From: Octopus vulgaris
Lineage: Eukaryota
Reading direction: 5' to 3'
NCBI GenBank assembly: GCA_951406725.2
Contig: CATOCA020000014.1
Coordinates: 1-64,000, forward strand
DNA length: 64,000 bases
The notes beneath the pieces are model-generated. The model was not told where the DNA came from. It saw only the letters and a list, made by a program, of their open reading frames with translations, and made no database searches. Made by a program: the position numbers and the translations under genes. Every line of letters begins with the position of its first letter. Position 1 is the first letter of the stretch. This document shows positions 2,987 to 59,444 of the stretch, piece after piece.

Positions 2987-9450
<6,464 letters not shown>

Positions 9451-13146: not shown

Positions 13147-15165
<2,019 letters not shown>

Positions 15166-21254: not shown

Positions 21255-21421
21255 TACAATGCAGGGAGCAATGAAAAAAAAAGGGGTTGTCTAGAAATAG
21301 TGTGTGCGTGTGAACATGTGCATGCACGAGCATGAATGCATGTATGTGTGTATCTATGTATAATAATTTACACACATCAACTTCCTATATTTCAGGAGTA
21401 AACAACTAAATTCAGGTTTAC

Positions 21422-21610
21422 CTTGTATATCACCCTTCAAACGGAGTGCTTGGGCTCGATTATTATAACCAGAAGACAATTGCGGAGCAAGTTGTATAGC
21501 CTGAGTAAACATGTGAATTGAAGAATCTAGGTTTCCATCTTCAGCTTCCTGAACTCCTCGAACCTCCCAAGACTTAGCTTCTTGCTCAAAAGCAGTCAAT
21601 ATTTTAGGTT
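21422..21610 (-). CDS. TTC36: TTC36 coding exon 2 (189 bp), TPR motifs
   Basis: tttcag|AA CCT...CAA G|gtaaac encodes AKSWEVRGVQEAEDGNLDSSIHMFTQAIQLAPQLSSGYNNRAQALRLKGD, containing the TTC36 signature YNNRAQAxRLxGD. Confidence 0.92.
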
Positions 21611-22085
21611 CTGAAAAATAAAATATCAATATACCACTGTTTTCCTGATTATTATTATTATTGTAATTATTTCACAACAGTAGAAACAGAAACACAAACA
21701 ATTAGCTGAATTAATTGCATCTTACAATTCCTGGAGTCGGATGATATTAACTGACTTTCGGTTAGATTATTTTTTATTTTGTTTCACACATTCAACCACA
21801 AGTTTTTGTGGCAAATAAAAGATATATGTTGGGGGAAGTTGGGTTTAGTAGCTAAGTGATAAGACCTTTGAATGACAAAAGAGAGCTGAAGAAAAGGAAA
21901 TAAGTAGCAAAAAGTAAGGAAATATTAGATATTTTGAATATCACTGCAGCTGCTTCTGGATGGGGATGCATTAGCTAAAGGTACCAGAATAGCTAGAGAG
22001 TAGTGGCGTTAGCTGTTATATTAGGGTTATGAAGGAGTTTCACGTTGATGGCATCATATATATGTGTTATTGAATGTGTTGACAT

Positions 22086-24825: not shown

Positions 24826-25079
24826 TTGTATTTAACTTCAATTAGGTGGCCTAGGATCAAGTCAGGTCAGCTATGGCTTCTGATTATGCTCCCAGGAACT
24901 TTAGCAAACCGATGGGGAGGGGGACAGGGTCACAGGCTTACTTATAGTTCATCAGTATTGAAACCAGGCACCTATGGCATTAGTTTTGTTTATCAACACT
25001 TGCTTGGCACATCCCCAAATTCCCTTCTTCCCAGTTGCTTGTTCTGTTGTGGTATGTATGAATGTCTCTTCTATTTTTT

Positions 25080-26830
25080 AATTATTATAAATATTCCACT
25101 GAGAAGGGAGCTGGTTTCCAACAAAAATGCAGGACTCCATATTTGGCAATAGTTAACACAGACAAATTCACATTTGGAACTTGAGAAAAGTCTTGCATAT
25201 TTTTACCGTTCCACTCACAGATTGCACTTGTACAAATCTGCCGGTCGATTTCTCTTTCTGAAAATCCCAGTTTATCCAGATTCTCCTTTAAGCATTTACT
25301 AACGAAACCTAGTTCCCCAATTACAATTGGTATGAATAAGAATTCATATTCTGGATATGGATTTTCAAAGAGATATTTATATCTGCAGGGCAGCTAACCT
25401 CTATGACAGAACATACCTTTGTCCCTCTGTCCTAAACAACGATATCTGGCCTGTTATGTTTATATTTGACAGAAGGAATATTCCACCAGTATTCCTTGAG
25501 ATGGTGTTTATGAATGTATACCATAACAGAGGGATTTTCAAAGTTTATTTCAGGACAATTTTTTTTGTGGATGGTATTGTAAATTGTTTTAGTGACAACA
25601 TCGTGCTGCATAGGGAGGTAGTGCCATGACGACATTTTAGGACAGCTGCTAATCACATGTCTTCCACAGAAATGACATAGCCTACACATGCGGTTGCACC
25701 TCGGGATTATAAGAGCGTCACTGTCTCTTTTGATCACCAGGAACTTTGTGGCAATCTTTTGTTCCTGGATTGCAAATGCATAGCCTTCAAAGTGTGGTGT
25801 GATGTAGTGGTCTTGTGTCCAAGAGCGGCTGTGCTTTGTGTCAATTCTACTGTCTTTTTCAAGCTTCCAGGCAACATACCCATGCCTAGTCTTTTTTTTT
25901 TTTGTATGCTGAGTGCTTTCCATCCAGATTTTCTCTGAGGTAAGAGAGCTGTTTTGGGGCTTTATAGATCATCAGGAAGAGAATGCTTCTTGAGCAGCTC
26001 ACTGCCAATTCATACAATGTTGCTTACTTCACTTTTCAGCACTGCATTTATATATTTATTTTTGCTGCTGTTGTTCAGCAGGTGCTGCCTGAGTGATACC
26101 ATACAGCATTTGAAGGCCATCTGCACTGACCTCAGGCCTCTACTACCTCCATTTCTTCTTAGGTAGAGCCTGTCAACAGCACTGTTTCTGTGGAAGTTCC
26201 CAGTTGTCAGGATTTTGTAGGTTTTGATATCAATGGAGTGGATTTCCTCTACAGACCAATCAAGTATCCCAAATGTTGGGATCAGCACTGGTACTGAAAA
26301 TGCATTGTGGGATATTATTTTGTTGTAAGAGGAGAGTTCCAACAGTCATATTTTCCTAAGTTTTGTGTAATATTCTTGGGTCACTTTACCTTTATTCACA
26401 ATGCCTTTGATACATTTTCATCTATGCCAAGGTACTTGTAACATTCTTTATGTGGAATGGGGGAGATAGAGAGACCATTGATGCACAGATTTTGGGTTTG
26501 GGAGACTGACTTTCCTCGTTCTTTAACCAAATATAAACATTTCTTTTGGCTAAATTCCATGACTATATCAGCTGAAAATGTTGTTATTAATTTCAGTTGC
26601 TTTTTGGCATTGTTAACACTTTTAGCATAAATCTTGAGGTTGTCTACAAAAAAATTATGAGTTACATTGATATTTCTAGCAGTTAAAGATCCTAGCATGT
26701 AACCATTTGTTTTCTGCAGTAGGAACGATAATGGATTCAGTGCCAAAATGAAAAGAAGTACAGAAAGACTATCTCCCTGGAATATTTCCTTTGAAATGCT
26801 TATAGTATCTGAAACAATTATTCTATTCTC
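25080..26830 (-). mobile_element. 5'-truncated RLE-type (R4/Dong-like) LINE, RT to 3' end
   Basis: IFQGDSLSVLLFILALNPLS, HNFFVDNLKIYA, YKYLGIDE, RLYLRRNGGSRGL, CRLC..HVISSC and HNRPDIVV, with a TAA-rich tail near 25082. Confidence 0.82.
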
Positions 26831-27345
26831 AGTTGAAGGGTGAGAATTGTTGTCCATGTCTTTGTCTCTCAATAGCAGCAATTAGGATGGTAGGTACTTT
26901 TGCCAGATGAAGGATAGAGTTAAATGCCTTCCTATAGTCAAGCCATACTGTCACAAGGTTTCTACACTGTTTTCTTATTTCAGACAGTACAACTTTGTTT
27001 ATGAAAAGTTATTCGACACATCCCGACACTACCTTCTTTCCACCAACCTGTTTGTTAATCACAATGATGTATGTATGTATGTATGCATGCATGTATAATA
27101 CATAGTCTGTTTTAAACCACATTTGAGAGGACAAAAGAAAATATTATTTACATTTGACAGATATTTGTCCTCATCTTGTTTGTTGTTAATACATAATTCC
27201 TCATTTCTTAAATGTAGAACTTAAAAGAAAATATATTTAGAATTTTAGTGAATGAACACTTAACAGTGCAATGTCTGGTAGTGGGAATACACAAGGATAC
27301 CTGCTGCATAAAACATAGCAAAAACAGATGCTTACATATTTGGCA

Positions 27346-29105
27346 TACTCTCAGGCCCCAAATAATAGGTGGGGTTGGAATAAGCAGGGTGGGTTGGATA
27401 TTTGATTAAATTCTTATAAGCGGGTGGGTTGAAGTAAACGGGGGGTTTGGAAAATCGGTAATTGTATAGTGGTAATTTCAAAATTTTCTACGTTGTCTCC
27501 TTTGATTTTTTAAAACCAGCTATTTACTCTCAGGTCCCAAATAATGGGGGTTGGTGCTGGAATAAGCGGGTGGTTTGGGCATTTGTTTAAATTCATCTGC
27601 ATCGTCTTGGATCGATTATGCGTGGTTATTTTCTTTCGCGTTTAAACTAACTTTTCTAGCATCTTTACTTTCTCTATTTTGTGATATTTTAGTTTCAGTT
27701 CTTTGTTCAAGTGCATATTGTTAACTTGAACAAATCCGCCAATGATGACTAGCACATAACCCCTTTTCCAGAGGGCATCTTTCACCTCCAGCATCAAGCA
27801 CATAAATGACAAAGTTTGCATGTGAAAACATTTTGAATCAGTTTGGAAGGTTTTCAATAGTATAGAGCAGCTGTTTGAATTTATAAAAAAGCTTTAGGAG
27901 ACCATTGATATTTCATTGTAGGCAGAGCATTCAGTAGTGGTGGTCTTTTTCCAGTTCCTTTAAATACAAACTTTGGGATAAGATTGATTTTGGTATCATT
28001 GCTAACCTTGGTGAACACTATATGTTCCCTAGACTAAAGGTATTTTCTTTGACAAACATATTTTAATTTTTGAATGATAGGGTAGCTTTTCCGCTACTTC
28101 CATTCTGTTGCAATAGCATTGATAATTAGGATGATCTACACCAAATTTGTCAAGGAAATAATGACACACACTCCATATTTTCTTCAAATAATCATGAATG
28201 CACTAAACATATTGCTCTTTGGAGATTAAAATGCATTTGTTTGGAAATTTCAGTGATACCCCATGGCCAACCTTTCATCCAGCTTTTCCTCACTTGGTGT
28301 GTCTAAGTGTTGGCAAATTCACACCTCAAAATTTCTCAGCCTGTAATAGGAAAAGAGCTTATGGTAATCTTGCAGCGATGTTTTAACATCCACAAACCTT
28401 TCAGGCGTCTCTCACACCTGATGCTTTTGTTTTACGACCTCTTCCAGTGACTCTGAAACGTTTCATTGGATTTTTTTCAGTGCTGTCAAGTTCACTTTCA
28501 GATATTTCCCATTTAGCTACTTTAACAGCAGAATCAAATAGTCAGTCAGAGTTTTTAACACCAACCAAATTGGAGTAAAACAAACAAACTGCTTTGGCGA
28601 AATATCCGTTGGGATATGGCGTTTCCTTTTAGCATCCCAATGGGTTTTCCCTTTCATTCACTCTAATTCAGAATCATACTCCTCTTTACATTTGTTCACC
28701 ATGATAGCAGGTGCTTGCTTTTCTTCTATAGAATAATTTCCATATGTCACACCACAAAATACTCTTTTCTCTGCCAAGATGTTATGGAAAAATAAAATTA
28801 TTAGTAGATTCTCCAGCTGTTGTATCACTATGAAAAGCTTACAATTATATTTCACTGGAGACAGATTAGCAAGATTTAATAAGGGGGAGGGGAATCTTAA
28901 AAATTAAATAAGCGAGGAGGGGGTGCCAAAAAATCTGAAAAAGGCAAGACTTCCTTTTGTACACCCCAAAAACACCCCTTTTTTCCAGAATCTCCTTACC
29001 CCAAAACGTAGGTTTTTGGCAAAATAATACTAATAATAATTTGCGAGAAAATGAGTTGAGGACGGGAGTACGAGGGAATCTGAAAAATTAATAAGCGGGG
29101 AGGGG
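27346..29105 (-). mobile_element. Degenerate pogo-like (Tc1/mariner superfamily) DNA transposon
   Basis: Minus-strand remnants PKFVFKGTGKR and EVKDALWKRGYVLVIIGGFVQVNNMHLNKELK resemble DDE_1. Repeated taataagcgggg-type terminal motifs at about 27350-27580 and 28870-29105. Confidence 0.55.
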
Positions 29106-29130
29106 ACAAGATATGATATAAAGGTGATTT

Positions 29131-32100
29131 GGTTAAACTAAAGCGTTAAACCCGGTCAAAAAAACAAAAAAAAATGTCTGTAATAGGTGTAAAACAACTT
29201 GCTCTAAACGAATATGACATAAGAAATGCGCACTCACGAAAGGGGAGTAGGGGAGAGGCCTCGGAAATTTCACATCTTCAGTCCACGGCCTTTAAACTAG
29301 GACAAAAATAGTGTAATTGGTGTTGTAGGAAATACGACCGTATGTGGAGGTTGATGATGTAGGTAAGTCACACGGTCGCATTCCTAACGAAATAAGATAA
29401 GCCATAAATACAATTTATACAATGCAGTGCCAACAGAATATAGATGAATTGACGACATGATGTTCCACTGTTTGAGAGAAGAGAAGATTTTATTTACAAT
29501 GGTGTTAATGTTAGAAGGTTGTGAGTGCTAGCAAGTGTGTGTGTGTGTGTGTGCATGCAACACGTGTTTGTGTCTGTGTGTTCGTGTGTGTGACAGATAC
29601 AATAAGGGTGAAAGCGTGTGACATAGTAGGTACAGAGCATAGAGTTAATGATGGAAATTGGTTTACAGTTCATAAGGTACACGATATGTAAGAGTTCAAT
29701 ATCAAGATGTTGTGTCTCGGGCGGAGGCCGGTTGGGCGAATTATTGTCGAGCCGCGGTCGTGGTCTCAATCGACGAGCGGGTTCTCTTAATATAGAATTC
29801 TTCAGATGGACTGTTTCTACTTGGTGAAGGGATTCACTCTAACAGCGTGGTTCTGTGAAGTTGGTGTGTACATGTCTGAAGTGGACGATGGTGATGGCGA
29901 CTTGAAGTTGGTACAATGATGGTGACGACGGCGTCGGAGATAGAAGGCTTTCTGTGGTGAGTGTACATTAGCGTCGTCGTGGGTGATCGTCTGTCGCTGT
30001 GACTGGAACATGTTGAGTAGCTCTGTGGTCAGAGGTTTAGTTGAGTCACTTGTGCTTATTTTTCTCTTGATATAGATATTCTTTCAGATATATATACTGC
30101 AACTGTTTTTCCGTGGTGAGATATTCACACTAACAGCATGAGTTGAATCTGTAGTTATCTTGTGTACAAGTTGAAATCTTCGGAGATGCAGACGATGTTG
30201 GTGATGGCGTTATGTCTGTCGCTTGGTTTACAATAGCGTCTTCATATTATGTTTCGCTTGGTTGTCATCTGCCTTTCGAACCGGAACATGGTTGAGTAAG
30301 CTCTGTGTGGTTTCCGACCAAGACCTTAAAAGGTCTCAAGCCAAAAGACATGAATCGTGAAATGATCAGCCTATTTAAAGAGTTAAGATGGCTCAAATGA
30401 AAAGTCCTATCCGAAAGCCGTGATTGGTCAGTTTACACACTGGCGCGAAGTAAGTAGAGAGACAGACCGTGCTTAGATGCTAACCAATCAAAATAGTGGA
30501 CACAACAACGTTAAACTAGCCAAAGATGTTTGTAATCTCAAACGAGATCATTCTTAATATTTTTCTCAAACAGTGAAGATAGCACTGAAGAAAACAATAT
30601 TGCTACAGTGTAAAACTACTTGTTCTAAACGATTATGAAGAACACACACTCACACATGAATCATAAACTCTGTATTTTGTTGATCCTACAAACGCGTCGG
30701 TGCACACACAGACGATAGACAGATTGTGAGGGTCAGTTAAGAGATCGGTTGTTCGCCCAGGCATTCGTGCCTGTTACTTAAAGCAATACCACGCCAAGTT
30801 CCTCTTTATGGAAAGCATCAAACCTACTGCCAAGAGAATACACGTATTCTTATTGGCAGCAGCAAGTCTTTATCCTGGCCCGAGATAATTTTTTCCTCCA
30901 AACGCAACCCATCTCATTTCTTTATCATCACTGTCGATGGACCACTCAAAGAGATACGTATACATTATCATTTTCGTAACATAATTTCTGTAGTATTTCA
31001 AGATGTTTCTGACACGTATTTTGATTCACATGGCGGAGATCCAACATTTCTTCACTTTTTCCAGAATTTCTTCTCTTTTTTTTTTATGGCGTAACGCTTT
31101 AGTTTAACCTAAATTTTCCACGACTAATGCATTAGTCGTGGAAAATTTGAACATTTCGTATCCGACCTCAATTGATTGGCGATCCTTCTGCTCCGAGGTT
31201 TGTCAGCATTGGGTAGAGAATTACCAGGACCAAATCGGTGGACCAGGAGTTGAAGTAGAGATTAATGAAACAGTTATTGTAAGGAGAAAATACAATCATG
31301 GAAGACTCACAAAAACTATCTGGCTTTTCGGTGGGATAGAGCGAATAGGCAAAAAAAAGTTTTGATACCTCTTTCATCTGAGTGTGGTGAAGAGGAAAAG
31401 CGAGATGCCGCCACACTGATCCCCTTAATTACCCGATATATACGCCAAGGGTCGGTAGTATATAGCGATTTTTGGGCTGCGTATAACTCTCTTGGAAATC
31501 TCGGGTATACCCACTTCCGCAGCAACCACAGTGAAAACTTTGTTGATCCGACAAACACGTCGGTGCACACACAGACGATAGAGAGATTGTGGGGGTCAGT
31601 TAAGAGATCGGTTGTTCGCCCAGGCATTCGTGCCTGTTACTTAAAACAATACCTCCCATCTCGTTTCTTTATCATCACTGTCGATGGACCACTCAAAGAG
31701 GTATGTATACATTATCATTTTCGTAACATAATTTCTGTAGTATTTCAAGAAGTTTCTGACACTTATTTTGATTCACATGGCGGAGATCCAACATTTCTTC
31801 ACTTTTTCCAGAATTTCTTCTCTTTATTTTTTTTTTTTTTGCGAAATATGTACAAAAATACGGAGTTTATGATTCATGTGTGAGTGTGTGTTCTTGATAC
31901 TCGTTTAGAACAAGTAGTTTTACACCAATGACACTATTTTTTCTTAGTTTAAAGGCCGTGGACTGAAGATGTGAAATTTCCGAAGCCTCTCCCCCACCCC
32001 CCTTTCGCGAGCGCGCATTTTCTTCATCATATTCGTTTAGAGCAAGTTGTTTTACACCTATTACGCTGTTTTTGTGCCCGGGTCAGACGCTTTCGGAAAT

Positions 32101-32403
32101 TCCCGATATAAATTTTCCGAGGCCTCTCCCCAACCCCCTTTCGCGAGTGCGCATTTTTTTTGTCATATTCGTTTAGAGCAAGTTGTTTTACACATATTAC
32201 ACTATTTTTTTTTTGTTTTGGTGCCCGGGTCAGCCCCTCAGACGCTTTCGGAAATTCCCGATGTGAATTTTCCGAGGCCTCTCCCCACCCCCCTTTCGCG
32301 TGCGGGCATTTTTTTTTTCATATTCATTCATAGGAAGTTATTTTACACCTATTACACACATTTTTTTTGTTTTTTTGACCGGGTTTAACGCTTTAGTTTA
32401 ACC
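29131..32403 (+). mobile_element. Composite Merlin (IS1595/ISXO2-like) DNA transposon
   Basis: TIRs ggttaaactaaagcgttaaacccggtcaaaaaaac...gtttttttgaccgggtttaacgctttagtttaacc. Exact 8-bp TSD ggtgattt at 29123-29130 and 32404-32411. Subterminal tandem repeats and a transposase remnant. Confidence 0.92.
31138..31660 (+). pseudogene. Merlin DDE transposase remnant (5'-truncated, frameshift near 31355, first catalytic D changed to N)
   Basis: IGGPGVEVEINET..RKYNHGR..WLFGGIER [fs] RDAATLIPLI..VYSDFWAAY..NHSENFVDP..VHTQTIERLWGSVK are DDE_Tnp_IS1595 motifs. Confidence 0.9.
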
Positions 32404-32759
32404 GGTGATTTGACTGCTATTTCTAGCAGGCTAGCTAACTACGTAGAAGCTACTTTAGTTGCTCGTATGCGTGGTGTATGCATGCTTGAATTTGTATCTG
32501 TATATTGATGGTTTGAAAAGACTCTTCTTTTCACAATACCAATAGTCATGATTTTAGTAATAAAGAGACACAAATGTAAATAGTTGTCGTAAAAGCTGTA
32601 TATCATGAGCTAAGCGAAAAATAAAAACCTCATCTTAGCGGCTCAAAGAATGGGCTTCCATCAACACTGAATTGATTTCCATCAACATGTATGTATTTAC
32701 GTGAATATGTAGAATAGTAAACAAAAGAAACGCTTTCAGAAAAGTTATTTGGAGGTTAC

Positions 32760-32886
32760 CTTCATTCGAGTTAATTATTTCAATATCTTCGGTAGTGTTG
32801 TGCGGATTTTCAGGATTGAAAACTCTATTAAGCACTGCCGTGTCATAGTCGCTGATTGCTACACGGTCGCTTTTCTCTTCATGCAT
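32760..32886 (-). CDS. TTC36: TTC36 coding exon 1 (ATG at 32886; 127 bp)
   Basis: MHEEKSDRVAISDYDTAVLNRVFNPENP matches TTC36 N-terminal DQAVLQAIFNPDTP. The donor GAA G|gtaacc is in phase with exon 2. Confidence 0.85.
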
Positions 32887-33009
32887 AATGGCTTGCAAGC
32901 AAATAAAAATATAATAAACAAAAACCTTCTGATAAGCACGATAATACACAAATCGATTACGAAGATTGTTAACAATGGGGCAGAGCAAGAAGGAGACTTT
33001 CTGAAACGA

Positions 33010-33050
33010 TTTTTGATTGGACAAAAGTTATTGTGGGCGGGGCGTCATTT
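33010..33050. promoter_or_regulatory. Putative promoter, possibly bidirectional: CCAAT box and GC box between TTC36 and the TICRR-like gene
   Basis: gattgg at 33015-33020 (CCAAT on the minus strand) and gggcggggc at 33035-33043, about 130-150 bp upstream of the TTC36 ATG. Confidence 0.55.
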
Positions 33051-33357
33051 CCAGTTGTTTAACCGCATCTCACCCACTAATTGAGATGAAAAGCTTTCCG
33101 TCCACGACATCTGTTTTGTGTAGAGTATCTAGAATTGTTTTATCTAATATGTGTCCTTCCTTTTTTTAAAGCTGAGGAGTGTGATATGAGAGGAATTTGA
33201 CTGATATTTCTAGCAGTTCGGACGAGCATGTAGAGGTTTTCTAATCTTTAGTAATTGTTTAGCGAGGTCAGTGCTGATAAAGCAGGTAGTACCAAGGACG
33301 TTCTAGTCTTCTTTATTATCTGATGTGTCCATCCTATTTGTTTTAAACCTTAATGTT

Positions 33358-33699
33358 AATAAATTTTTTGATTCTGGAAAACTTACTGAACATCACAAAT
33401 TCAACGATTTCAAACTTAGACGTTTCGAAGAATTCGAAAAAGAATTACAAAGAGAGTTCGAAGGTGATGGTTCCAGCGTGCCGAAGGTCAACAGTGGAGA
33501 TTCTTCCGAAAGGAGGAAGTCAAACACTCCATCAGCAGCTGAATGTTTGAAAAGGACTTTATCCTACGCTGTCTACGACTTCCATTGGGAAAGTCCAGAC
33601 ATCACATCTCCTGCCAGGAAGATCGGAAGGAGTAGTATTCGGTCTTCCAGAAAACACAGTGCCGTTGTTTCAAGTGAGATTTCTCCACACAACCTTGTA
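33358..33699 (+). pseudogene. TICRR: TICRR/Treslin-like exon 1 remnant, truncated at both ends
   Basis: KFFDSGKL..DFKLRRFEEFEKEL..YDFHWESPDITSPARK..HNLV matches human Treslin KFFDSQG..DFRELGSRSWEDFEEEL..DYQWDRPEITSPTK..NAV. There is no in-frame ATG upstream and the frame stops at the palindrome junction. Confidence 0.8.
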
Positions 33700-33789
33700 T
33701 AAGTAGTTATATGCTTATATTATCCATTATAGTAATATTTGTCTGTTGAAACCTGTTTTAAGGCGGTCAATAGTTTAATTAAAGATGTA

Positions 33790-33838
<49 letters not shown>

Positions 33839-34983
33839 GTGTATATATACATGTGTATACATATATATATATATATACATGTATAGACACATCTTTAATT
33901 AAACTATTGACCGCCTTAAAACGGGTTTCAACAGACAAATATTACTATAATGGATAATGTAATGGATAAAATTCAGACAAACTTACCTCTTGCTGTCAAA
34001 AAAAGTGGATTAATTCTCAGCAAAACATACTGTTATGCTAGACCAGTGGTTTTCAACCAGGGTTCCGCAAGAAGTTGCAAAACTGCTAAAATCGGCAGTA
34101 ATTTTTAATTCTCCTGTGCAGATATGCGTGCATAAGACTATTAAATTATTGCACAGGGGTTCCTCGAGCCAGTGGAATGTTTGAATTACGCTCTGTGATA
34201 GCGTCAGGTTCTAATTTTTGCTTCTGATCTCTCTCTGTGCCGCCCTCTCTATCTCAAACTAATTTTTGTGTAGGTGGAGGTGTGGTGGGGAGACAGATGA
34301 ACAATGTCTCATGAACCATTTCTTAAACATACACGATATAGTCTATAAATTTGGGATGTTTTTGAAAGATAATATATTTTATCATCAGAATATATATACT
34401 TTCTCACACTACAATTAAGGTATATTTATTTTAAATCGTTCATCTTTTCCCGCCCACAACAAAACTTGGCGCGAAAACTTTTCTAAATATCAGCAGAATG
34501 AACAACTGAGATAGAGAGGGGGTGGGCAAAGAGAGATCAGAAGCAAAAATTAGAAACTGAAACCACACAGCGTAATTCAAACATTCCACTGGCTCGAGGA
34601 ACCCCTGTGCAATAATTTAATAGTCTTATGCACGCATATCTGCACAGGAGAATTAAAAATTACTGCCGATTTTAGCAGTTTTGCAACTTCTTGCGGAACC
34701 CTGGTTGAAAACCACTGGTCTAGCATAACAGTATGTTTTGCTGAGAATTAATCCACTTTTTTTGACAGCAAGAGGTAAGTTTGTCTGAATTTTATCCATT
34801 ACATTATCCATTATAGTAATATTTGTCTGTTGAAACCCGTTTTAAGGCGGTCAATAGTTTAATTAAAGATGTGTCTATACATGTATATATATATATATAT
34901 ATACATGTGTATATATATATATTTATATATACATGTGTATATATATAGACATGTGTATATATATATATATATATATACATTAT

Positions 34984-35036
<53 letters not shown>

Positions 35037-35133
35037 AGATACATCTTTAATTAAACTATTGACCGCCTTAAAACAGGTTTCAACAGACAAATATTACTAT
35101 AATGGATAATATAAGCATATAACTACTTATACA
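33696..35133. repeat. 1.44-kb nested palindrome (foldback): arms 33696-34256 and 34507-35133, each arm containing its own hairpin
   Basis: tgtataagtagttatatgc... is the reverse complement of ...gcatataactacttataca. Inner hairpins lie at 33719-33958 and 34803-35110 with (TA)n loops. Confidence 0.95.
34044..34717. mobile_element. Non-autonomous hAT (Charlie/Buster-like) element with long inverted arms
   Basis: Termini cagtggttttcaacc...ggttgaaaaccactg. The flank gtctagca resembles the nTCTAGAn target, but the two flanks are inverted rather than directly repeated. Confidence 0.65.
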
Positions 35134-36565
35134 CACATACAATAAATACAGACACACACATTAGTCAGACATATAGCCACATATACACACACTGCAAGAA
35201 TATATTTATTTATAAAGTTTAAACAGAACATGGAATGAAATGTATTTATTTATAAACTTTAAACTGAACTTCAATTGTTTTATAAGCCTAACGGCGAACC
35301 TCACGCAAATACACGAAGTTGACGACTTTCACTTCTGACAGCTAAAAGCATGACAGTATGCCAAATCTTCTTTTGCCCAATGATTTGTTCACACTTCAAT
35401 TTACTATCTTCTAGAAATGTTTCTTTTCTAAATTATTGATTTGTTATTTTTTTTTCCTTGTGAAAATTCCGGGGGAGGGGGTTACCCCCCTTTCCGGAGC
35501 AATTCCGGACCAAAATATGGGATTTGCAGCATATTAGGAGGTCAGGGTACTTGATCCCACGCAAAAAATCCGAGTTTTTTTTTTTTCTTAGTGAAAATCG
35601 TGCGGGTGTTAATCTGTAATTTTACCGTCAATTCTGACCTTTCCCCACCTAAAATTGCGGGCCTTGTGTTGACTGGATTAAAATCTCTCTGAAAATGCTC
35701 AACTATTGTTTTTCATAAAGCATTTATCTTCGTAAGTTTTGTGTCAATTATGATGTATTGGGATAAATATATTGATTCTTAAACCAGAGACCTTTTTCTA
35801 CCACCTACAATCCACACACACACACTTTTAAAAAAAAAAGGTCTATTACTTCAAATGTTAATGGTTTCTGTTAAGACTCAGCAACTTTTAACGAGTTCTT
35901 GACTAGAATTTGGTTTGTCAACTGTTAATAACTTTCAGTTCTTTAGACGTTCACATGATTGGGTAACAAGGCTAACGTGGGTGAGTAGAGGGGCTTATAC
36001 GTGTCACTCGGCTAGCTAGAAATAGCAGTCAAATTACTCTCGGATCCATACTAAACCTCTTTAAAAGAAAGAGAGAAGGGCGTATTCAGTAAAGTAGTCC
36101 AAGAAAAAATAAGTGAGAGTAGTTGGTCACGATGTAAAGATCATGCAGTTGTTCAGTCTAGGAGCCCAATAACAAATCAACTTATTTGTTTATGAAAGAA
36201 ATCGGTACTTGGAGAGTGAAAACGTTTTTTTCTCTCTTTTTGTTTTCTAAACTTTTCTCATTGAATACTTTCCCTCTTTATTGTAGTCCTGTAAACTCCT
36301 TATCCACTTTTTCATGCTTGCATATGTGTCACACGGAATTTGTAAAAGCAGATTTTCTACGACTGGATGCCCTTGTTGACAACCCCTACCTGTTTCCGAG
36401 CAAAGTAACTGATCCCCGTGGCTAGACATGTTTTTCACGGAAGACGAGAAACGAACATAATCTATATGACATGGTGTCAACACCAGGACACATTCTGTAT
36501 ATATATATCATCATCATCGTTTAACGTCCGTCCGCCTTCCGTGCTGGCATGGATGTATATATATA

Positions 36566-37687
36566 CTCTTTTACTTGTTTCAGTCGTGACTGTGGCCATG
36601 CTGGAGCACCGCCTTTAGTCGAGCAAATCGACCCCGGGACTTATTCTTTGTAAGCCTAGTACTTATTTTATCGGTCTCTTTTGTCGTAAACACAGCATCG
36701 GTTGCCAAGCGATGTTGGGGGAACAAACATATACATACACACACTCACAAATATATATATATATATATATATGGCATAGTTTCGGTTGGATTTCCGTCGA
36801 TTTCCGTAAAAAACTTTTATTTTTTTACATAAGTAATGAGAGCGAAAGAGACTAAGAGGAAGCGATTTTACGACGAGAAGGTTTCACTTTGAAGTCGGCC
36901 TGTGTGTGTTTGATGGGGTGTGGGAGACAGACAGTATGTTGTGTAAGTGAAGTGCTTCTGTTAGTGTGTGTGAAGAGACAGACATACATATACACATACA
37001 CCGAGTAAAAGATTACTATGAATCGGCCATACATACATACATACACACACACACATACATAGATACATACACACACACACATACATACATACATACATAC
37101 ACACACACATACTTACACACACACACACACACATAGATACATACACACACACACATACATGCAGACATACATATACACATACACCGAGTAAAAAATTACA
37201 CTGAATCGACCATACATACATACACACATACATACATACACATACACACATACATAGATACATAACATACACACACACACATACATGCAGACATACATAT
37301 ACACATACACCGAGTAAAAAATTACGATGAATCGGCCATACATACATACATACACACACACATACTTACACACACACATACTTACACACACACACACATA
37401 CATGCATACATACATATACACATACACCGAGTAAAAAATCAGTTATCTCTCTCTTTCACACATTACTCTCTCTGTCTCTTCGCACACACTAACAGAAGCA
37501 CTTCACTTACACAACATACTGTCTGTCTCCCACACCCCATCAAACACACACAGGCCGACTTCAAAGTGAAACCTTCTCGTCGTAAAATCGCTTCCTCTTA
37601 GTCTCTTTCGCTCTCATTACTTATGTAAAAAAATAAAAGTTTTTTACGGAAATCGACGGAAATCTGTGCTACGACATGCGAAACTTC

Positions 37688-37762
<75 letters not shown>

Positions 37763-37912
37763 GACGGGCTTCCTTCAGTTTCTGTCTACCAAATCCACTC
37801 ACAAGGCTTTGGTCGGCCCAAGGCTATAGTAGAAGACACTTACCCAAGGTGCCATGCAGTGGGATAGAACCCGGAACCATGTGGTTGGTAAGCAAGCTAC
37901 TTACCACACAGC

Positions 37913-37916
<4 letters not shown>
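36566..37916 (-). mobile_element. tRNA-derived SINE interrupted by a TIR element
   Basis: Minus-strand head gtggctgtgtggtaag (A-box) ... ggttctatccc (B-box) at about 37860-37915. Body and tail at 36566-36740; a similar tail occurs at 50870-51120. Confidence 0.75.
36773..37690. mobile_element. Non-autonomous DNA transposon with about 200-bp TIRs, inserted in (TA)n
   Basis: 36789-36982 is a nearly perfect reverse complement of 37472-37664. Termini are ggc...gcc with (TA)n on both sides. The interior has four accgagtaaaa-anchored repeats. Confidence 0.85.
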
Positions 37917-37961
<45 letters not shown>

Positions 37962-38351
37962 CACATATACACACACACACACACACACACGACTGATTTT
38001 ATTCAATTTCCAGGTACCCAATAAACTCAAAATGTCATGTAATGGGATAATAGTGATAATTCAGAGATTTAAAAGAAATAAGGATGATTATAGTTGGAAG
38101 GGCAACTCTTCTGAAACAAAAAGTATTTAGTCCCCAATACTTTTTGGTAGCAGCAACATTAGCATTTTGGATATAATTCATCTGTTTTTGTGGATCATAG
38201 AATCATCAGTGAAGAACGTGTAGAAGTCAGTTATGTCTACTAAAAAAAAATAGCAACATCATTTAACGTCTGTCTTCCTATAACAGTTGACTACAATGCT
38301 GCTATGCCAGTCATTGGGTATAATACCTTTCTATACATCCTGATTAACTAT

Positions 38352-40825
38352 ATGGGTGAAGTGTATCAGACTGCCAGAAGGGAAGCTAGGAGGCAGGTTC
38401 ATTTAGCCATAGGAGAAGCAGATAAGAAAAAATCTGCCAATGTTCTGCGTCGTGAGGACGAAAGAATTAAGGCATTTCGTGTTGCAAGACAGTGTGTGAG
38501 AGAGAATCCTGATGTGGTAGGAGAGAAATGTGTCCACATGGATGATGGCTCACTTGCATTTAATGAGGCTGAAAAGAGAGAGACTTGGAGAAGCCACTAT
38601 GAAAGGTTGCTGAATAAAGAAAATGAATGGGCGAAAAAGAGTCTGCCGAATGTCGACCCAACAGAGGGACCAGCTATCCGAGTTGACAGTACCTTGGTAG
38701 ATAAGGCAATTAGAAGTATGAAGACAGGGAAAGCCCCAGGCCCATCAGGAATCACTGCAGAGATGCTCAAAATATCTGGCAGTGTCGGCTATAGCCTAGT
38801 CACCCGTATTGTAAACCAGGTGATACACAAAGGAGTCATTCCCAATGACTGGTGTAGCAGCATAATAGTTAACTGCTACAAAGGTAAAGGTGACACTTTA
38901 GATATAAATAATTACAGAGGTAACAAGCTGTTGGATCAGGTAATGAAGGTCACGTAGAGGGTCATAGCCCAACTGATTAGGGAGAGAGTCAGCTTGGATG
39001 AGATGCAGTTTGGTTTCATGCCAGGGAAAAGCACCACTGATGCCATATTTCTGGTAAGACAGCTGCAGGAGAAATACCTAGCCAAACATAAGCCCCTGTA
39101 CCTGGCTTTTCGTTGACATGAAGAAAGCCTTTGACAGGGTCCCTCAATCCCTTATCCGGTGGTCAATGAAGAAACTAAGGATAGATGAATGGTTAGTGAG
39201 AGCTGTGCAAGCCATGTACAGGGGTGCTGTAAGGTGAGGGTTGGCAACGAGCACACTGAAGAATTCAGGGTAGAGGTAGGGGTCCACCAAGGTTCAGTCC
39301 TCAGTCCCCACCTATCTATCTTAGTCCTCCAGGCAATAATGGAGGAATTCAAGACAGGATGCCCCTGGGAGTGCCTCTATGCTGATGCCCTTGCACTAAT
39401 TGCTGAGTCACTATCAGAACTGGAGGAGAAGTTTCAGGTGTGGAAACAAGGATTAGAATTGAAGGGCCTTAGAGTCAACCTAGCTAAAACCAAAGTCTTA
39501 ATAAGTAGGAAAGCAGGCAAACCACAAATCCCTTCAGGTAGATGGCCCTGCTCGATCTGTTGTAGAGGCATAGGTAGAAACTCTTATAAGATGTACTAAG
39601 TGTAAACTATAGACACATAAGAGGTGCAGTAATATCAAAGGAAGGCTAACTAGGAAGATAGTTTTTGTATGTGGCAGATGCTTGGGAGCAATAAACACTG
39701 AAAATGCACTGAGAACAACTTCCGCCACATTCCAGGGAGGAAAACTAGAAGTGGTTGATAGCTTCCATTACTTAGGTGACCAAGTCAGTAGCAGGGGAGG
39801 GTGCGATAAAAATAGCTTGGGCAAAGTTCAGAGAGCTCTTACTTCTGCTGGTGACAAAGGACCTCTCGCTCAGAGTAAAAGGTAGACTGTATGACATGTG
39901 TACGAACAGCCATGCTACATGGCAGTGAAACATGGGCTGTGACTGCTGAGGACATGCGTAAGCTTGCAAGGAATGAAGCCAGTATGATCAGATGGATGTG
40001 TAATGTCAGTGTGCATACTCGACAGAGTGTAAGTACCTTGAGAGAAAAGTTGGACCTAAGAAGCATCAGATGTGGTGTGCAAGAGAGACGTTTGCGCTGG
40101 TATGGTCATGTGGCGAGAATGGATGAGGACAACTGTGTGAAAAAGTGCCACACCCTAGCGGTTGAGGGAACCTGTGGAAGAGGTAGACCCAGGAAAACCT
40201 GGGATGAAGTGGTGAAGCACAACCTTCAAACCTCACCAAGGAAATGACTAGCGACTGAGACTTTTGGAAATATGCCGTGTGTGAGAAGACCCGGCAAGCC
40301 AAATGAGACCATAATCTGAAGGCCTATGCCAGGGGCATTACCAGCCCTCTTATGTGTACCTTTTCCTTCTTTGGACACTAAAACTCTGCTTGCGAAGACC
40401 TGTTGAGGCAAGTGAAATCAAATTCGATGACTGGCGTCCGTGCTAGCAGGGTGCAAAGAGAACCGTTCGAGCATGATCGTTACCAGCGTCACCTTACTGG
40501 CACTCGAGCCCCGTGCAAGTAGGGTATTGAGAGCACCATCCGAGCGTGATCGTTACCAGCATCGCCTTACTGGCATCTGTGCTGGTGGCATGTGTAAAAG
40601 ATTTGAGCAAGGTCGTTGCCAGTACTACCTGATTGGTTTCATGCTGGTGGCACGTAAAAGTACCCACTACACTCTCGGAGTGGTTGGCATTAGGAAGGGC
40701 ATGCAGCTGTAGAAACTCTGCCAGATCAAGATTGAAGCCTGGTGCAGCCATCTGGTTCGCCAGCCCTTAGTCATTCGTCCAACCCATGCTAGCATGGAAA
40801 GCGGACGTTAAACGATGATGATGAT
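38352..40825 (+). mobile_element. 5'-truncated, degenerate RTE LINE with a longer 3' UTR
   Basis: Close protein similarity to the 9577-12898 ORF, with frameshifts, stops and YADA in place of YADD. (GAT)n tail near 40813. Confidence 0.92.
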
Positions 40826-41029
40826 GTTGTGACTAGGCTGTATCCTACTCTGCCAGATATTTTAAGCATCTTGGAGGTAATTCCTGATGGACTAAGGGCT
40901 TTCTCTGCCATCATATCCTAAATTGCTCTACCTTCTATGCTTCTGTCAACTACAATAGCTATTTTCTTTATTTGGTTCACATTGGAAAGACCTTTTTTTC
41001 TTCCACACATTATCCTAATAGCATTTCAT

Positions 41030-41850
41030 AGTAGCATTCACATCTATTTTCCAAATCACTAATATTAAATGTTCCATCATCCATCCAAACACTTCTTGCC
41101 CACAACATGTTGATTCCCTCTGATACACTGTTTTACAATCTCGATCATTTCATGCCTCTGATGTCATCATGCTGCAGAACATTGGCAGACCTCTTACTTT
41201 CTGCTCCTCCCTTTGCTCTATATATACCTGTTGCCTAGCTTCTTTTCTAGCTACTTTAATTCTTTGCAGCCTCCATTTTTCTAGTGTTTCCAAGCCTGTC
41301 TCTTAGTTTTAATGACCGTTCACCTCATTGCTCCACCTATTTCAGCCAGCTACACATTTGATCTGTTGCTCAAATGTGATCATTTCTCTTCTATATTATA
41401 TGTCTCTATCTCCTCATCATCAGATGCTTCAATTAGTACTTTTCTGCATTTCTGTCTGTTCATTGTATTTTTAAGCTTCCGTAACATCCTTTTCCAAACT
41501 GGTTGTTTTATATCTAAGCCTGAAGTCACTAGCCACTAACCTTTGTTGAGTTGTACATTCTTCACTCAAAAATGTACAAGCATCTGTCTGTCCCATTTTC
41601 TGGTGAAAATGTAGTCAACCTGGCTTGTGTACCCACAAGATTGATAGTGATCAGATAAATGGTTGGTTTCTTGAAGTTAATGTTACAGGTCATCTAATCA
41701 TTTGCATCAAAGCTTTGATCCCTCCTCAATTCTAGGACCAAAGTTTGTGTTTCTGTGTACTCTATGGAATCCAAGTCCCAATATGTTTGTTGAAGTCTCC
41801 AGACATTCATCATCAAGGAATGTGTGTAAGGGCTTCATAAAATTGGTCTG
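41030..41850 (-). mobile_element. Old RTE endonuclease-region fragment
   Basis: The minus strand near 41590-41700 gives CNINFKKPT..LIT..SQVDYIFTRK. Confidence 0.6.
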
Positions 41851-43095
41851 TTGTACACTCATCTGTGTATGTATATATATTTATATATATACATACCAAC
41901 CCATGCTAGCATGGAAAACAGATGTTAAACAATGATGATGATGATGACATATGCATATATTGTATGTGTGTGTGTGTATATATATATATATATACACACA
42001 CACATACATACATGCATACATGTGTGTGTGTGTGTGTGTGTGTGTCCTTGTATTCATATAACATGACAGTTCCGAACATGCGTCATTGCCATGCTAGTGA
42101 AGTCATTTGTTTTCAGTCTTCTGTGAAAAACATGTCTGACCATGGGGAAATTATTATTTTGCTTGGAAACAGGTGAGGGTTGGCAACAGGAAGGGCATCC
42201 AGCTGTACAAAATCTGCCTTAATAAACTCGGGCAAGCATGGAAAAGTGGACAGTCAAATGAAGATGATGATAACATCATTAATTTTAAATCTGTTTTTCC
42301 ATGCTATCATGGGTAAGATGGAAGTTTATTTGGGACACCATTTTAGGGCTGGATGCTCTTTCTGTCACCACCTTTTAACCTGTTTTCTTGTATGGTAAAT
42401 GTGAGAGATCAGATATGGCCTGTTTGAACATAAAACAGGTAGAATATTAGGGCAGAATATGGCCAGTTTCCTTCCACCAAATTTTTCTCATTAGATATTG
42501 GTCAGCCTCTAGCTATGGTAGAAAATAGCTTTGCTGCTGCACAGACTGAAGTCAAACCACATGGCTATGACATGGATTTATTAACCACAAGATATATCAC
42601 ATAATGATACCTTGAAGAAACATCAATGTGGTCATTTGACCTGGTAGAAAAACAACCAAATGTCCTACAAATCACATCTGCCTTAAACAAAGAAGGACAC
42701 ATTGGATAATGTAGTTCTAGATACCCTTCTAAAGACTGGGAGCTCACAGCTGGAATGCTTTTGGTCATAAATTTGCTTGGTTGACTTCAGAGTTAAACAA
42801 CAATCAATATATTTATACTAGTGAAGTTATGTCTCCCATAGTCAAGTAACCAAATTACATCTTAACCTCTATCAATAATTAAAATTGTATAAATTGTATG
42901 TTAAATAATTTTAGTACCTGTTTTGTAAGAAATAATGAGATAACTTAGTTAAGATAATGTTTACTTAGAAAAAGCATGTGGATTGCAGAATTAATAAATG
43001 CTCAGCCAAAATGTGTTGCTTTATCCACTGTACCCTGCTGCCTGTGAAATTAGGATTCACTTTCGATGCTCTCTCTCTCTCTTTCTATCTATCTA

Positions 43096-43134
<39 letters not shown>

Positions 43135-44851
43135 ATGATGATGATATATATATATATATATATATATAAATATATATATATATCCTATTCACTGCATTAC
43201 ATCACCCATGTAATGAGTGATGACATTAGACTTGTGCATATGCCACCAACATCCTTAACACCCTATCTCCCTTTCATTCTCTCTTACTCTCTTTGTCACC
43301 ACGCCATGATAACTAAAACCATGGGCACTCTGTCAACTGGTTGGCAAATGAGTGGTAGTAATGGAGGTTTGATAGGATCTCATCTAGTGTTGGTAGCCAG
43401 AGTAAAGAGCACCCAATACACTGTAAAGTGGTTGGTGTTGGGAAGAGCACCTAGCTGTAGAAACCATTCCAAAATGGAACATGCAAATGAGATGTGATCC
43501 TCAACAACTTAGAATTACAGTCTGTGCTGTATAGAATGCAGTCCATCCTTAGCAACATAGAATGCATTTTATGGAAAGTGGATGTGAGATGGTGATGACA
43601 ATGACATCATTGTTGTCTTTTTGTTTTGAGTTCAACTCTTACCCAGATCCACTTTGCTTTCAATCCATCTAGGGTTTATAAAGTAAGTGCTAGGGTCAAT
43701 GTACTCAACTATTACCAAGAAAGTAATAACTCAGCATAGCCAATATATTTTGAAACTGTATTACAACAACTAGAATCACTTTTTCAATCCTCAGTCAACA
43801 CTTACTTGAGACTAGAAAAGTGAAATATAATCTTCCACTAAGTTATCCCCTTTCTTGTAATATGTGAAGTTTCAGCATTCAAATATAAATTTGAACTTTT
43901 TTTTTTTTTATATATATATATATATATATATCTACTTTGAAGCACAGTCACCATCCTCATTTAACATCCATTTTCTGTGTTGACATGAGTTGGATGGTTA
44001 GTAAACTGGGGAGCTGCACCAGGTTCCAATCTCATTTGGCATGGTTTCTACAGCTGGATGCCCTTCCTCATGCCAACCATTCCAAGAGTGTAGTGGGTGC
44101 TTTTTACACACCACCAGCACAGGTACCAGTTGTGAAACACCATCATTAGCCATGACTTCTCAAACACAGTATATTGCCAGAGGTCTTGGCCACTTGTCAC
44201 TGCCTCTGTGAGGCCCAAAGTTGAAAGGGTGCCTTTTACGGGCCACCCAGCATGGGTGCCAGTTACGCAACACTGGCATCAGTTGCAACTACAATTTCCT
44301 GTGGCTTGATGGGTCTTCTCAAGCATGGTATACTGCCCAACGTTCAAAGGGTGCTTTTAATGTGCCCTCAGCACAGGAGCTAGTTATATGACACTGTTCC
44401 TTAATGCTTTTGATACAAACCTGTCCAAGACCAACTCTGGTTCCTTAATACAAACTTGAGCTTTCAGATCACTCTGTCAAATATGATGCTTATTTATTCA
44501 CATTATTTTTTAATTAATGCTGCAATATTTCGTAACTTTAAGATTTTGAGGATATGGTTATTTTTAGAATGGCCTTGTGGACCAGATCTTGCTGGTTTGA
44601 ACATAAAACAGGTACAATATTTAGTTTAAATGCAGAAGGGTTAATGTGATTTAAGGACCTTCCCTCAAAATTTCATGTTAATTTATGTTCCAAACTCTAA
44701 AGTTTGTTGCTATTTTCAAAGTTAGTGGAAATAACAGCAGTGCATTTCAAAAGCAATCTAGCAACAAAGAGGTGAAGAGTTTGGTGTGTGTATGGGAAAG
44801 TTATAAATAACAGCAGTGTTCAATTTCTTTTAAATATCTTAATCTTTTTAG

Positions 44852-45302
44852 ATTTCCAGGGAAATGGCAGATTCAATCAATATTGTATCTGAAGCTTTAA
44901 CTCAACTTGGAGGAAAACTTATTCCATTAGATGCCTTAGTAAATACTGGCAAAACATACTGGTCCTCTGTACATACAGTTACAAGGCAGATTGAGGAAAA
45001 GTCTTCTCTAACAAAAAATGAACATCCAAAACCAAGTGAACAGCCTGCAGGTTTCCAAAGTATGAGTGGTACAGATGATAAGGAAGACACACCAAAAATC
45101 AATGATATCCCTCATTCTCCAGATAGTATTGGTAACATATGTTATAATCAACCATCAAGATGTATCCTCCCTGTAACCTGTTTACTTGACTATTTCATCT
45201 CCAAACCAAACAACTCTAATGTTACACCAGTTAACAATTCCAGCCAAATTTGCAACCCAAGTAGCTTAGGCTCCATTCAGGCTAGATTAACTTATCACAA
45301 AG
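44852..45302 (+). CDS. TICRR: TICRR/Treslin-like internal exon
   Basis: ttttag|ATT TCC AGG...CAC AAA G|gtaagc. IVSEALTQLGGKLIP resembles TVCELLHHGGGTVLP, and ILPVTCLLDYF resembles MLPTDATLNRL. Confidence 0.75.

Positions 45303-57817: not shown

Positions 57818-59444
<1,627 letters not shown>

What the first reader, a model, noticed from the sequence alone, without database searches (positions are those of the whole stretch)
33696..35133. Palindrome within a palindrome: flank of a hAT element copied in inverted orientation over an exon
Seen: outer arms of about 560 and 630 bp. They appear identical outside the TA loops up to 34192/34569 but are clearly diverged in the innermost 65 bp or so. 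Each arm holds a hairpin with a stem of about 76 bp and two diagnostic mismatches (acctg/acccg, gtatc/gtgtc) that the other arm mirrors exactly, so the small hairpin predates the large duplication. The hAT ends (34044, 34717) are flanked by inverted 8-mers (tgctagac / gtctagca) rather than direct ones. Known: alternative (sister-chromatid) transposition of hAT elements such as Ac/Ds, and template switching at hairpins, both create deletions with inverted duplications. Inference: two successive fold-back events, one centred on (TA)n and one on a TIR element, suggest a recurring palindrome-generating process in this genome.
Basis: partly seen in the sequence, partly recalled or inferred. Interest (0 to 1): 0.75.

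Follow-up and report, generated by a model that had tools for sequence, protein, structure and literature searches.

The report
Merlin foldback transposon with mosaic arms
The nested palindrome is the inner part of a small jumping-gene family scattered across this genome, whose two mirror-image arms are patchworks of older transposon pieces that were likely copied from one arm to the other in a family ancestor, not built at this spot.

Summary
The nested palindrome is real and as described. It is not a local rearrangement. It is the inner 1.44 kb of a dispersed, young, non-coding foldback transposon whose right end is at 35626. Eight two-armed copies elsewhere are 2.8-5.4 kb long, the longest single arm alignments reach 1.4 kb, and 6 of 8 have exact 8-bp target duplications. 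All carry the same hairpins, diagnostic bases and inverted 8-mers. GG ends, 8-bp duplications and decayed IS1595-type transposases in relatives point to Merlin.

The pieces are traceable. The small hairpin is the centre of an older Merlin-type MITE. The 'hAT ends' are the same end of one 179-bp hAT MITE, found elsewhere with its direct TGCTAGAC duplication and as an empty site. Variants shared by both arms of a copy indicate arm-to-arm conversion (p=0.012 and 0.033).

The window copy lost its left end plus about 640 bp of a Treslin-like exon and intron by deletion. Closest precedent: TIR extension in Galileo. New variant of a known kind; modest interest.

The parts
33696..35626 (.). Surviving part (1,931 bp) of a non-autonomous foldback transposon; right end intact, left end deleted
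35441..35626 (-). Terminal module: starts GGTAAAATTACAGATT, with ~130-bp subterminal tandem repeats (2 here, 2-4 in other copies)
   Evidence: 140 exact terminal 23-mers in the genome, 0 for the reversed control
35627..35634 (+). GTCAATTC, presumed right half of the 8-bp target duplication; its left partner is lost
   Evidence: position by analogy with paired copies; unpaired among the ends fetched
35363..35431 (-). Scrap of Merlin transposase coding sequence (90% over 52 nt to four intact GGCACTG-ended Merlins; longer in L152)
34799..35362 (-). Remnant of an older GGCACTG-ended Merlin-type foldback MITE: one arm, outer stem 35040-35114, TA loop 34876-35041, inner stem 34799-34875
   Evidence: L149 is an intact 984-bp relative with direct TSD AAAGTTTT; diagnostic bases
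34718..34798 (-). Segment X: subterminal sequence of the transposase-bearing parent, ending in the hAT target 8-mer (34718-34725)
   Evidence: 85-89% to X in L280, L283, L284
34579..34717 (-). First 139 bp of a 179-bp hAT-type MITE
   Evidence: free copies with direct 8-bp TSDs
34183..34578 (.). Centre: diverged inner arms D (34183-34256, 34507-34578; ~84% alike) around a 250-bp core; homologous to the region upstream of the transposase in the parent and to the centre of sister elements L065/L074
34044..34182 (+). Mirror copy of the same 139-bp hAT MITE end
33963..34043 (+). Mirror copy of X including TGCTAGAC (34036-34043)
33696..33962 (+). Mirror copy of the hairpin (outer stem from 33715, TA loop 33788-33885, inner stem to 33962); truncated at 33696
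33307..33695 (+). Host Treslin (TICRR)-like exon fragment cut at the deletion junction; intact-exon relatives on two other chromosomes
   Evidence: Pfam Treslin_N E=7.7e-8

Best explanation
The region is a left-truncated copy of a dispersed non-coding transposon with long inverted arms and 8-bp target duplications, likely moved by a Merlin transposase supplied in trans, whose nested palindrome was likely assembled once in a family ancestor by nested insertions, deletions and arm-to-arm copying.

Proposed order. (1) A long-TIR Merlin with GGTAAAATT ends received a 179-bp hAT MITE in its subterminal segment X. Shown: empty site L284, filled site L280 with direct TGCTAGAC. (2) A GGCACTG-ended foldback MITE with a stem-(TA)n-stem centre came to lie in the same arm. 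Shown as an arrangement in L152, and as a free element with its own TSD in L149. (3) Deletions joined the inner stem to X, and the hAT end to the parent's 5' region (D-core-D). Junctions are seen; the order is inferred. (4) One arm was copied onto the other, the tract ending about 10 bp inside the older D-D homology at 34192/34569 (inferred). (5) The composite spread, with continuing exchange between arms. Spread is shown; exchange is statistically supported. (6) One copy inserted into an intron of a Treslin-like duplicate, and a deletion removed its left end and about 640 bp of host DNA. The deletion is shown against paralogues; that insertion came first is inferred.
For: Dispersal: 11 loci match 34044-34717 over its full length at 97-100% (window, 3 near-identical duplicates of this locus, 7 dispersed), and in all 11 both flanks continue as the inverted X sequence.

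TSDs: exact 8-bp direct TSD in 12 of 15, 5 of 7 and 14 of 20 loci where both termini were found, and in 6 of 8 two-armed dispersed copies of this subfamily, with one more at 1 mismatch.

Inherited hairpin: among 28 loci typed, family copies have CCTG/TATC outer stems (one TATA) and CCCG/TGTC inner stems. None of five older relatives (L148-L152) has the outer alleles.

hAT source: 8 of 11 free copies fetched have exact direct TSDs; filled and empty X sites.

Merlin link: L214, L280 and L284 carry the terminal module plus a DDE_Tnp_IS1595 match, and L280/L284 also carry X and core homology.

Arm exchange: arms within a copy differ by 0.40-0.42%, against 0.66-0.85% between copies. No column separates left from right arms. 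Private variants occur in both arms of the window lineage, L063, L066 and L156. Permutation p=0.012 and 0.033, 9 copies each.

Deletion: paralogues have ~640 bp more host DNA at this place.
Against: No intact autonomous element with these ends was found; the three relatives with terminal module and transposase are broken and gave no TSD. The arm also holds a scrap of a different Merlin's transposase, so which transposase moves the family is not shown.

11 of 42 paired loci lack an exact TSD. The arm-exchange test is small, and the outer-arm signal leans on L156. Conversion cannot be told from crossover between arms, or from exchange in a donor copy before it jumped.

Searches scored only 40 of up to 1,628 candidates, so copy counts are lower bounds.
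Confidence: 0.9

Rival explanations
1. Local fold-back or hAT alternative transposition made this palindrome at this locus.
For: Inverted 8-mers at hAT-type ends and perfect arm identity in the window; host DNA is missing next to it.
Against: The same structure sits at unrelated loci inside a larger unit with its own TSDs. The duplicated flank is not local host DNA: the Treslin paralogues lack it and the transposase-bearing parent has it.
Confidence: 0.02
2. The element is a long-TIR element of another superfamily (Mutator/foldback, P/Galileo or hAT) that merely swallowed Merlin pieces.
For: Kilobase arms with internal tandem repeats are typical of Galileo and MULEs (PMC3573991, PMC3310237). 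The 8-bp TSD is shared with hAT (recalled). No intact partner was found.
Against: GG termini plus 8-bp TSD fit the Merlin definition (PMC8101967). Three relatives with this terminal module hold IS1595-type transposase, and X, D and core map to their non-coding regions.
Confidence: 0.06
3. Fold-back chimeric reads or mis-assembly created the palindrome.
For: The window is on a small contig with near-identical duplicates and very long TA and poly-A runs. No contig from public runs spanned the whole structure; only the two junctions were laid.
Against: Arms have fixed left/right differences in D across copies, unequal TA loops and copy-specific substitutions. Copies on many chromosomes have distinct TSDs. 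Contigs from two studies run 28-30 bases across the left junction, and from two studies across the right junction, just under the tool's 31-base bar.
Confidence: 0.02

Closest known systems
Galileo '2RT' and chimeric copies, Drosophila mojavensis (P superfamily; PMC3573991, passages and part of the Discussion read)
   Same: Non-autonomous copies with TIRs up to ~1.25 kb, internal tandem repeats, internal sequence recruited into both arms, centres swapped between subfamilies; explained by repair of one TIR from the other.
   Different: Galileo has 7-bp TSDs and, in the passages read, recruits its own internal sequence. Here the TSD is 8 bp, the parent is Merlin-type, and the arms also mirror relics of two other transposons, one bringing its own hairpin.
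Merlin/IS1016 superfamily (PMC8101967, passages read)
   Same: 5'-GG ends, 8-bp TSD, internal tandem repeats, DDE_Tnp_IS1595 transposase in relatives.
   Different: Reported Merlin TIRs are 24-462 bp. These arms align over up to 1.4 kb and are mosaics; this copy has no ORF.
MULEs with multiple TIRs in plants (PMC3310237, passages read)
   Same: Extra, internal terminal sequences without their own TSD carried inside an element that still transposes.
   Different: There the extra TIRs resemble the element's own; here they come from other families (a hAT MITE and a second Merlin-type MITE).
Ac/Ds alternative transposition (recalled, no paper read)
   Same: Can leave inverted duplications next to hAT ends.
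   Different: It duplicates local host DNA up to an element end. Here the duplicated flank is transposon DNA inherited by all copies.

Membership tests
Merlin (IS1016/IS1595-like) DNA transposon, non-autonomous | Terminal 5'-GG-3' in inverted repeats | tested here: met
   GGTAAAATT at both ends of paired copies (1 of 15 starts GA)
Merlin (IS1016/IS1595-like) DNA transposon, non-autonomous | 8- or 9-bp TSD | tested here: met
   exact 8 bp in 31 of 42 paired loci; 9 bp did not fit exactly in any of 15. Not testable for the window copy itself, whose left end is lost
Merlin (IS1016/IS1595-like) DNA transposon, non-autonomous | DDE_Tnp_IS1595 transposase in a relative sharing the ends | tested here: met
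   L214, L280, L284: Pfam matches E=1.8e-15, 3.0e-7, 1.2e-9 next to the terminal module; all broken
Merlin (IS1016/IS1595-like) DNA transposon, non-autonomous | Intact autonomous partner with the same ends and a TSD | tested here: inconclusive
   none among 38 loci and 9 loci; searches are capped
Merlin (IS1016/IS1595-like) DNA transposon, non-autonomous | TIR length 24-462 bp as reported | tested here: not met
   arm alignments up to 1,438 columns; small relatives have short arms. PMC3573991 notes that TIR length is unreliable for classification
hAT element spanning 34044-34717 | Two different ends flanked by a direct 8-bp TSD, moving as a unit | tested here: not met
   0 of 11 full-length matches has a direct TSD; both ends are the same end of a 179-bp MITE
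hAT-type MITE (179 bp donor of 34044-34182) | CAGTG ends and direct 8-bp TSD | tested here: met
   8 of 11 free copies exact, 1 with one mismatch, 2 none; filled and empty site. The hAT label rests on recalled end and target motifs; no transposase was linked
Foldback-type (Galileo-like) architecture | Long internally repetitive TIRs extended by recruited internal sequence and kept alike within a copy | tested here: met
Product of hAT alternative transposition | Inverted duplication of local host DNA unique to the locus | tested here: not met

The most novel reading that the evidence does not exclude
A recently active Merlin lineage behaves as a Galileo-like foldback: its arms keep absorbing and mirroring other transposons' ends and hairpins, stay mobile at 1.4 kb, and act as rearrangement hotspots in this genome. 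Candidates are the deletion in the Treslin-like duplicate, a second 8.5-kb deletion in a duplicate of this locus, and possibly a 58-Mb inversion between two relatives that share a reciprocal 8-mer.
Probability: 0.25. Interest if true: 0.55.

Novelty: new variant of a known kind. Interest (0 to 1): 0.3.

Why it matters
It extends foldback-type arm growth, described for Galileo, to a Merlin-type family with arms about three times the reported Merlin maximum. The intermediates (empty site, filled site, free MITEs, precursor arrangement) survive in one genome, so the build-up can be read step by step. It also warns that inverted 'TSDs' beside hAT ends can be inherited cargo, not signs of alternative transposition. 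The searches listed no paper on a foldback-type Merlin (titles and abstract starts only; subscription journals and Repbase not covered), so absence from print is not established.

Tried and rejected
Local fold-back/alternative transposition and read chimera: rejected (see rivals).

X as a captured host exon/intron (it holds a splice-donor-like motif): rejected. The search with 34718-34880 returned 46 matches, and those examined were family copies or older transposon relatives; X maps to the parent element.

Intact autonomous partner: not found. A de novo TIR/TSD scan of 30 Merlin transposase loci recovered mostly GGCACTG/GGCACAG-ended elements, in 6 loci; 38 terminus loci and 9 transposase loci gave broken relatives only. 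The stem was not found in four intact GGCACTG Merlins, so where the first hairpin arose is open; it lies beside a Merlin transposase in L245 and L246.

One search's motif scan returned nothing because of an offset error and was redone. Paper search returned nothing.

The flank search for the possible inversion found no second full copy of the flank, so contiguity could not be tested. Cross-locus 8-mer matches also occurred by chance for two other target sequences.

Public runs were contigs only: depth was not used, and uncovered stretches are not taken as evidence. Folding energies had no shuffle control and are not used.

Full report
Observation. Aligning 33660-34400 with the reverse complement of 34401-35170 shows arms from 33696/35133 inward. 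They are identical outside the TA loops as far as 34192/34569, then about 84% alike over the last 70 bp. The hAT-type ends are flanked by inverted 8-mers. The description is accurate.

It is a dispersed family. The window lies in a 2.8-Gb genome. A search with 34044-34717 gave 11 full-length matches at 97-100%: the window, three near-identical duplicates of this locus and seven dispersed copies (40 of 995 candidates scored). In all 11, both flanks continue as the same inverted sequence seen here. Homology extends to window 35626 on both sides of the dispersed copies, where the element ends in GGTAAAATTACAGATT. Exact 8-bp direct TSDs flank 12 of 15 paired loci (20 loci examined), 5 of 7 and 14 of 20 (38 examined). 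Eight dispersed copies keep both arms with the nested hairpins. They are 2.8-5.4 kb long, single arm alignments reach about 1.4 kb in three of them, and six have exact TSDs, one has a single mismatch and one has none. The terminal 23-mer occurs 140 times, its reversed control 0 times; many of these belong to short relatives of 50-500 bp.

Superfamily. Merlin elements are defined by GG ends, 8-9-bp TSDs, TIRs of 24-462 bp and an IS1595-type transposase (PMC8101967, 12 passages read). The genome holds at least 150 such domain matches. Three loci with this family's terminal module carry a broken one (L214, L280, L284). In L280 and L284, segment X and the core map to the non-coding regions around the ORF, the core at 92% over 139 bp in L284. 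No intact autonomous copy was found, so mobilisation by a Merlin transposase is inferred.

Where the pieces come from. (a) The 'hAT element' is not one. Its first 139 bp match a free 179-bp MITE; 8 of 11 fetched copies have exact direct 8-bp TSDs. L284 has X with a single TGCTAGAC; L280 has X with the whole MITE between two direct TGCTAGAC; L152 has the same with one mismatch. The window's inverted 8-mers are therefore one half of that old TSD, present twice. (b) The small hairpin is the centre of an older GGCACTG-ended foldback MITE. L149 is an intact 984-bp example with its own TSD, and its terminus survives, with a 2-bp insertion, near window 35362. Among 28 loci typed, family copies share the outer alleles CCTG/TATC (one TATA) and the inner alleles CCCG/TGTC, while five older relatives lack the outer alleles. 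The two diagnostic changes thus arose once, in the outer stem, before the arm was mirrored. (c) L152 keeps the precursor order: terminal module, transposase scrap, whole hairpin MITE, X, whole hAT MITE. (d) The junction of hAT end to D has a 3-base overlap (TTT), and the junction of stem to X has a short tandem duplication; both are identical in the two arms. The D-core-D centre is shared with sister elements that have other arms, and its left/right differences are fixed across most copies.

Mechanism of mirroring. In the arms outside D and the TA loops, the two arms of one copy differ by 0.40-0.42%, and arms of different copies by 0.66-0.85%, whether same-side or opposite-side. No column separates left from right arms. 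Private variants occur in both arms of the window lineage, L063 (12-bp deletion), L066 and L156; permutation p=0.012 (inner) and 0.033 (outer), nine copies each, with the duplicate L075 left out. A 29-bp deletion is on the right arm in three lineages and on the left in one. This is what repair of one arm from the other predicts, the model proposed for TIR extension in Galileo (PMC3573991, passages and second part of the Discussion read). The edge of identity at 34192/34569 is best read as the end of such a tract inside older D-D homology. Whether the TA tract triggered the first fold-back is not shown.

This locus. The left flank is a Treslin_N exon fragment. Two relatives on other chromosomes match 33359-33698 and resume at 35632 after about 640 bp that the window lacks: the rest of the exon and part of an intron. 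The window copy thus lost at least 493 bp of its left arm together with host DNA, at a junction without evident microhomology. In contigs of four public runs from four studies, two cross the left junction by 28-30 bases, and two continue into the intact exon instead. Two cross the right junction by 28-30 bases, one of them a run with the intact exon, and one run has a contig that starts in the flank and leaves the window before the element. These overlaps are just under the tool's 31-base bar and are unphased, so polymorphism and insertion-before-deletion are suggested, not shown.

Verdict. The structure is real, but it is an inherited, truncated transposon copy, not a local event. It works like Galileo's extended-TIR copies, and by ends, TSD and relatives it is most likely a Merlin derivative. 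Its arm length exceeds the reported Merlin range, and it mirrors relics of two other transposons, as multi-TIR MULEs do with their own ends (PMC3310237, passages read). Searches for a foldback-type Merlin (listings only) showed none. No supplements were read; Repbase entries could not be checked. Earlier notes on this genome call it an octopus and describe other palindromes homogenised after insertion; none matched this sequence.

Noticed in passing
L228:5963 (G000:C7 37.38 Mb) and L214:7346 (G000:C7 95.19 Mb): Two transposase-bearing relatives 58 Mb apart on one chromosome have outer flanks that are reverse complements (CGAATATC), the swapped-TSD pattern expected of an inversion between copies. 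Chance matches of other 8-mers also occurred; untested.
   Followed up: partly
G000:C35 ~143 kb (L076/L209): A further duplicate of this region joins window 26082 directly to 34597, an 8.5-kb deletion ending inside the element; real or assembly-derived is not known.
   Followed up: partly
window 31269-31883 and 31977-32404: A different Merlin remnant: DDE_Tnp_IS1595 fragment (E=2e-13), 155-bp subterminal tandem repeats, with an inverted partner near 29131-29323.
   Followed up: partly
window 25000-45000 vs G000 C21 (~1 Mb), C35, C36; paralogues at the ends of C3 and C22: The region is duplicated at about 99% on one chromosome start and two small contigs, and the Treslin-like exon has 90% relatives within 100 kb of two chromosome ends: likely subtelomeric duplication or redundant haplotypes.
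   Followed up: partly
window 46576-48498 (-): Long hAT/SPIN-like transposase frames (461 + 178 aa; Spin-doc zinc finger).
   Followed up: no
window 2987-9451, 13152-15164, 58270-59083: 6.4-kb and 2-kb TA-rich arrays and an 814-base poly-A-like run, the last possibly a sequencing artefact.
   Followed up: no
L287:2517 and L287:8758 (G000:C21 40.76 Mb): Two tandem intact 327-aa Merlin-like ORFs with EIGE where relatives have EIDE; possibly domesticated.
   Followed up: no
L198 (G000:C28 3.94 Mb): Tandem array of longer variants of the 179-bp hAT MITE.
   Followed up: no
window 21354-21671 (-); 38244-40247 (+); 25432-26881 (-): A TPR-containing exon (weak Pfam matches) and two sets of retroelement-like reverse-transcriptase fragments, labelled from recall.
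   Followed up: no
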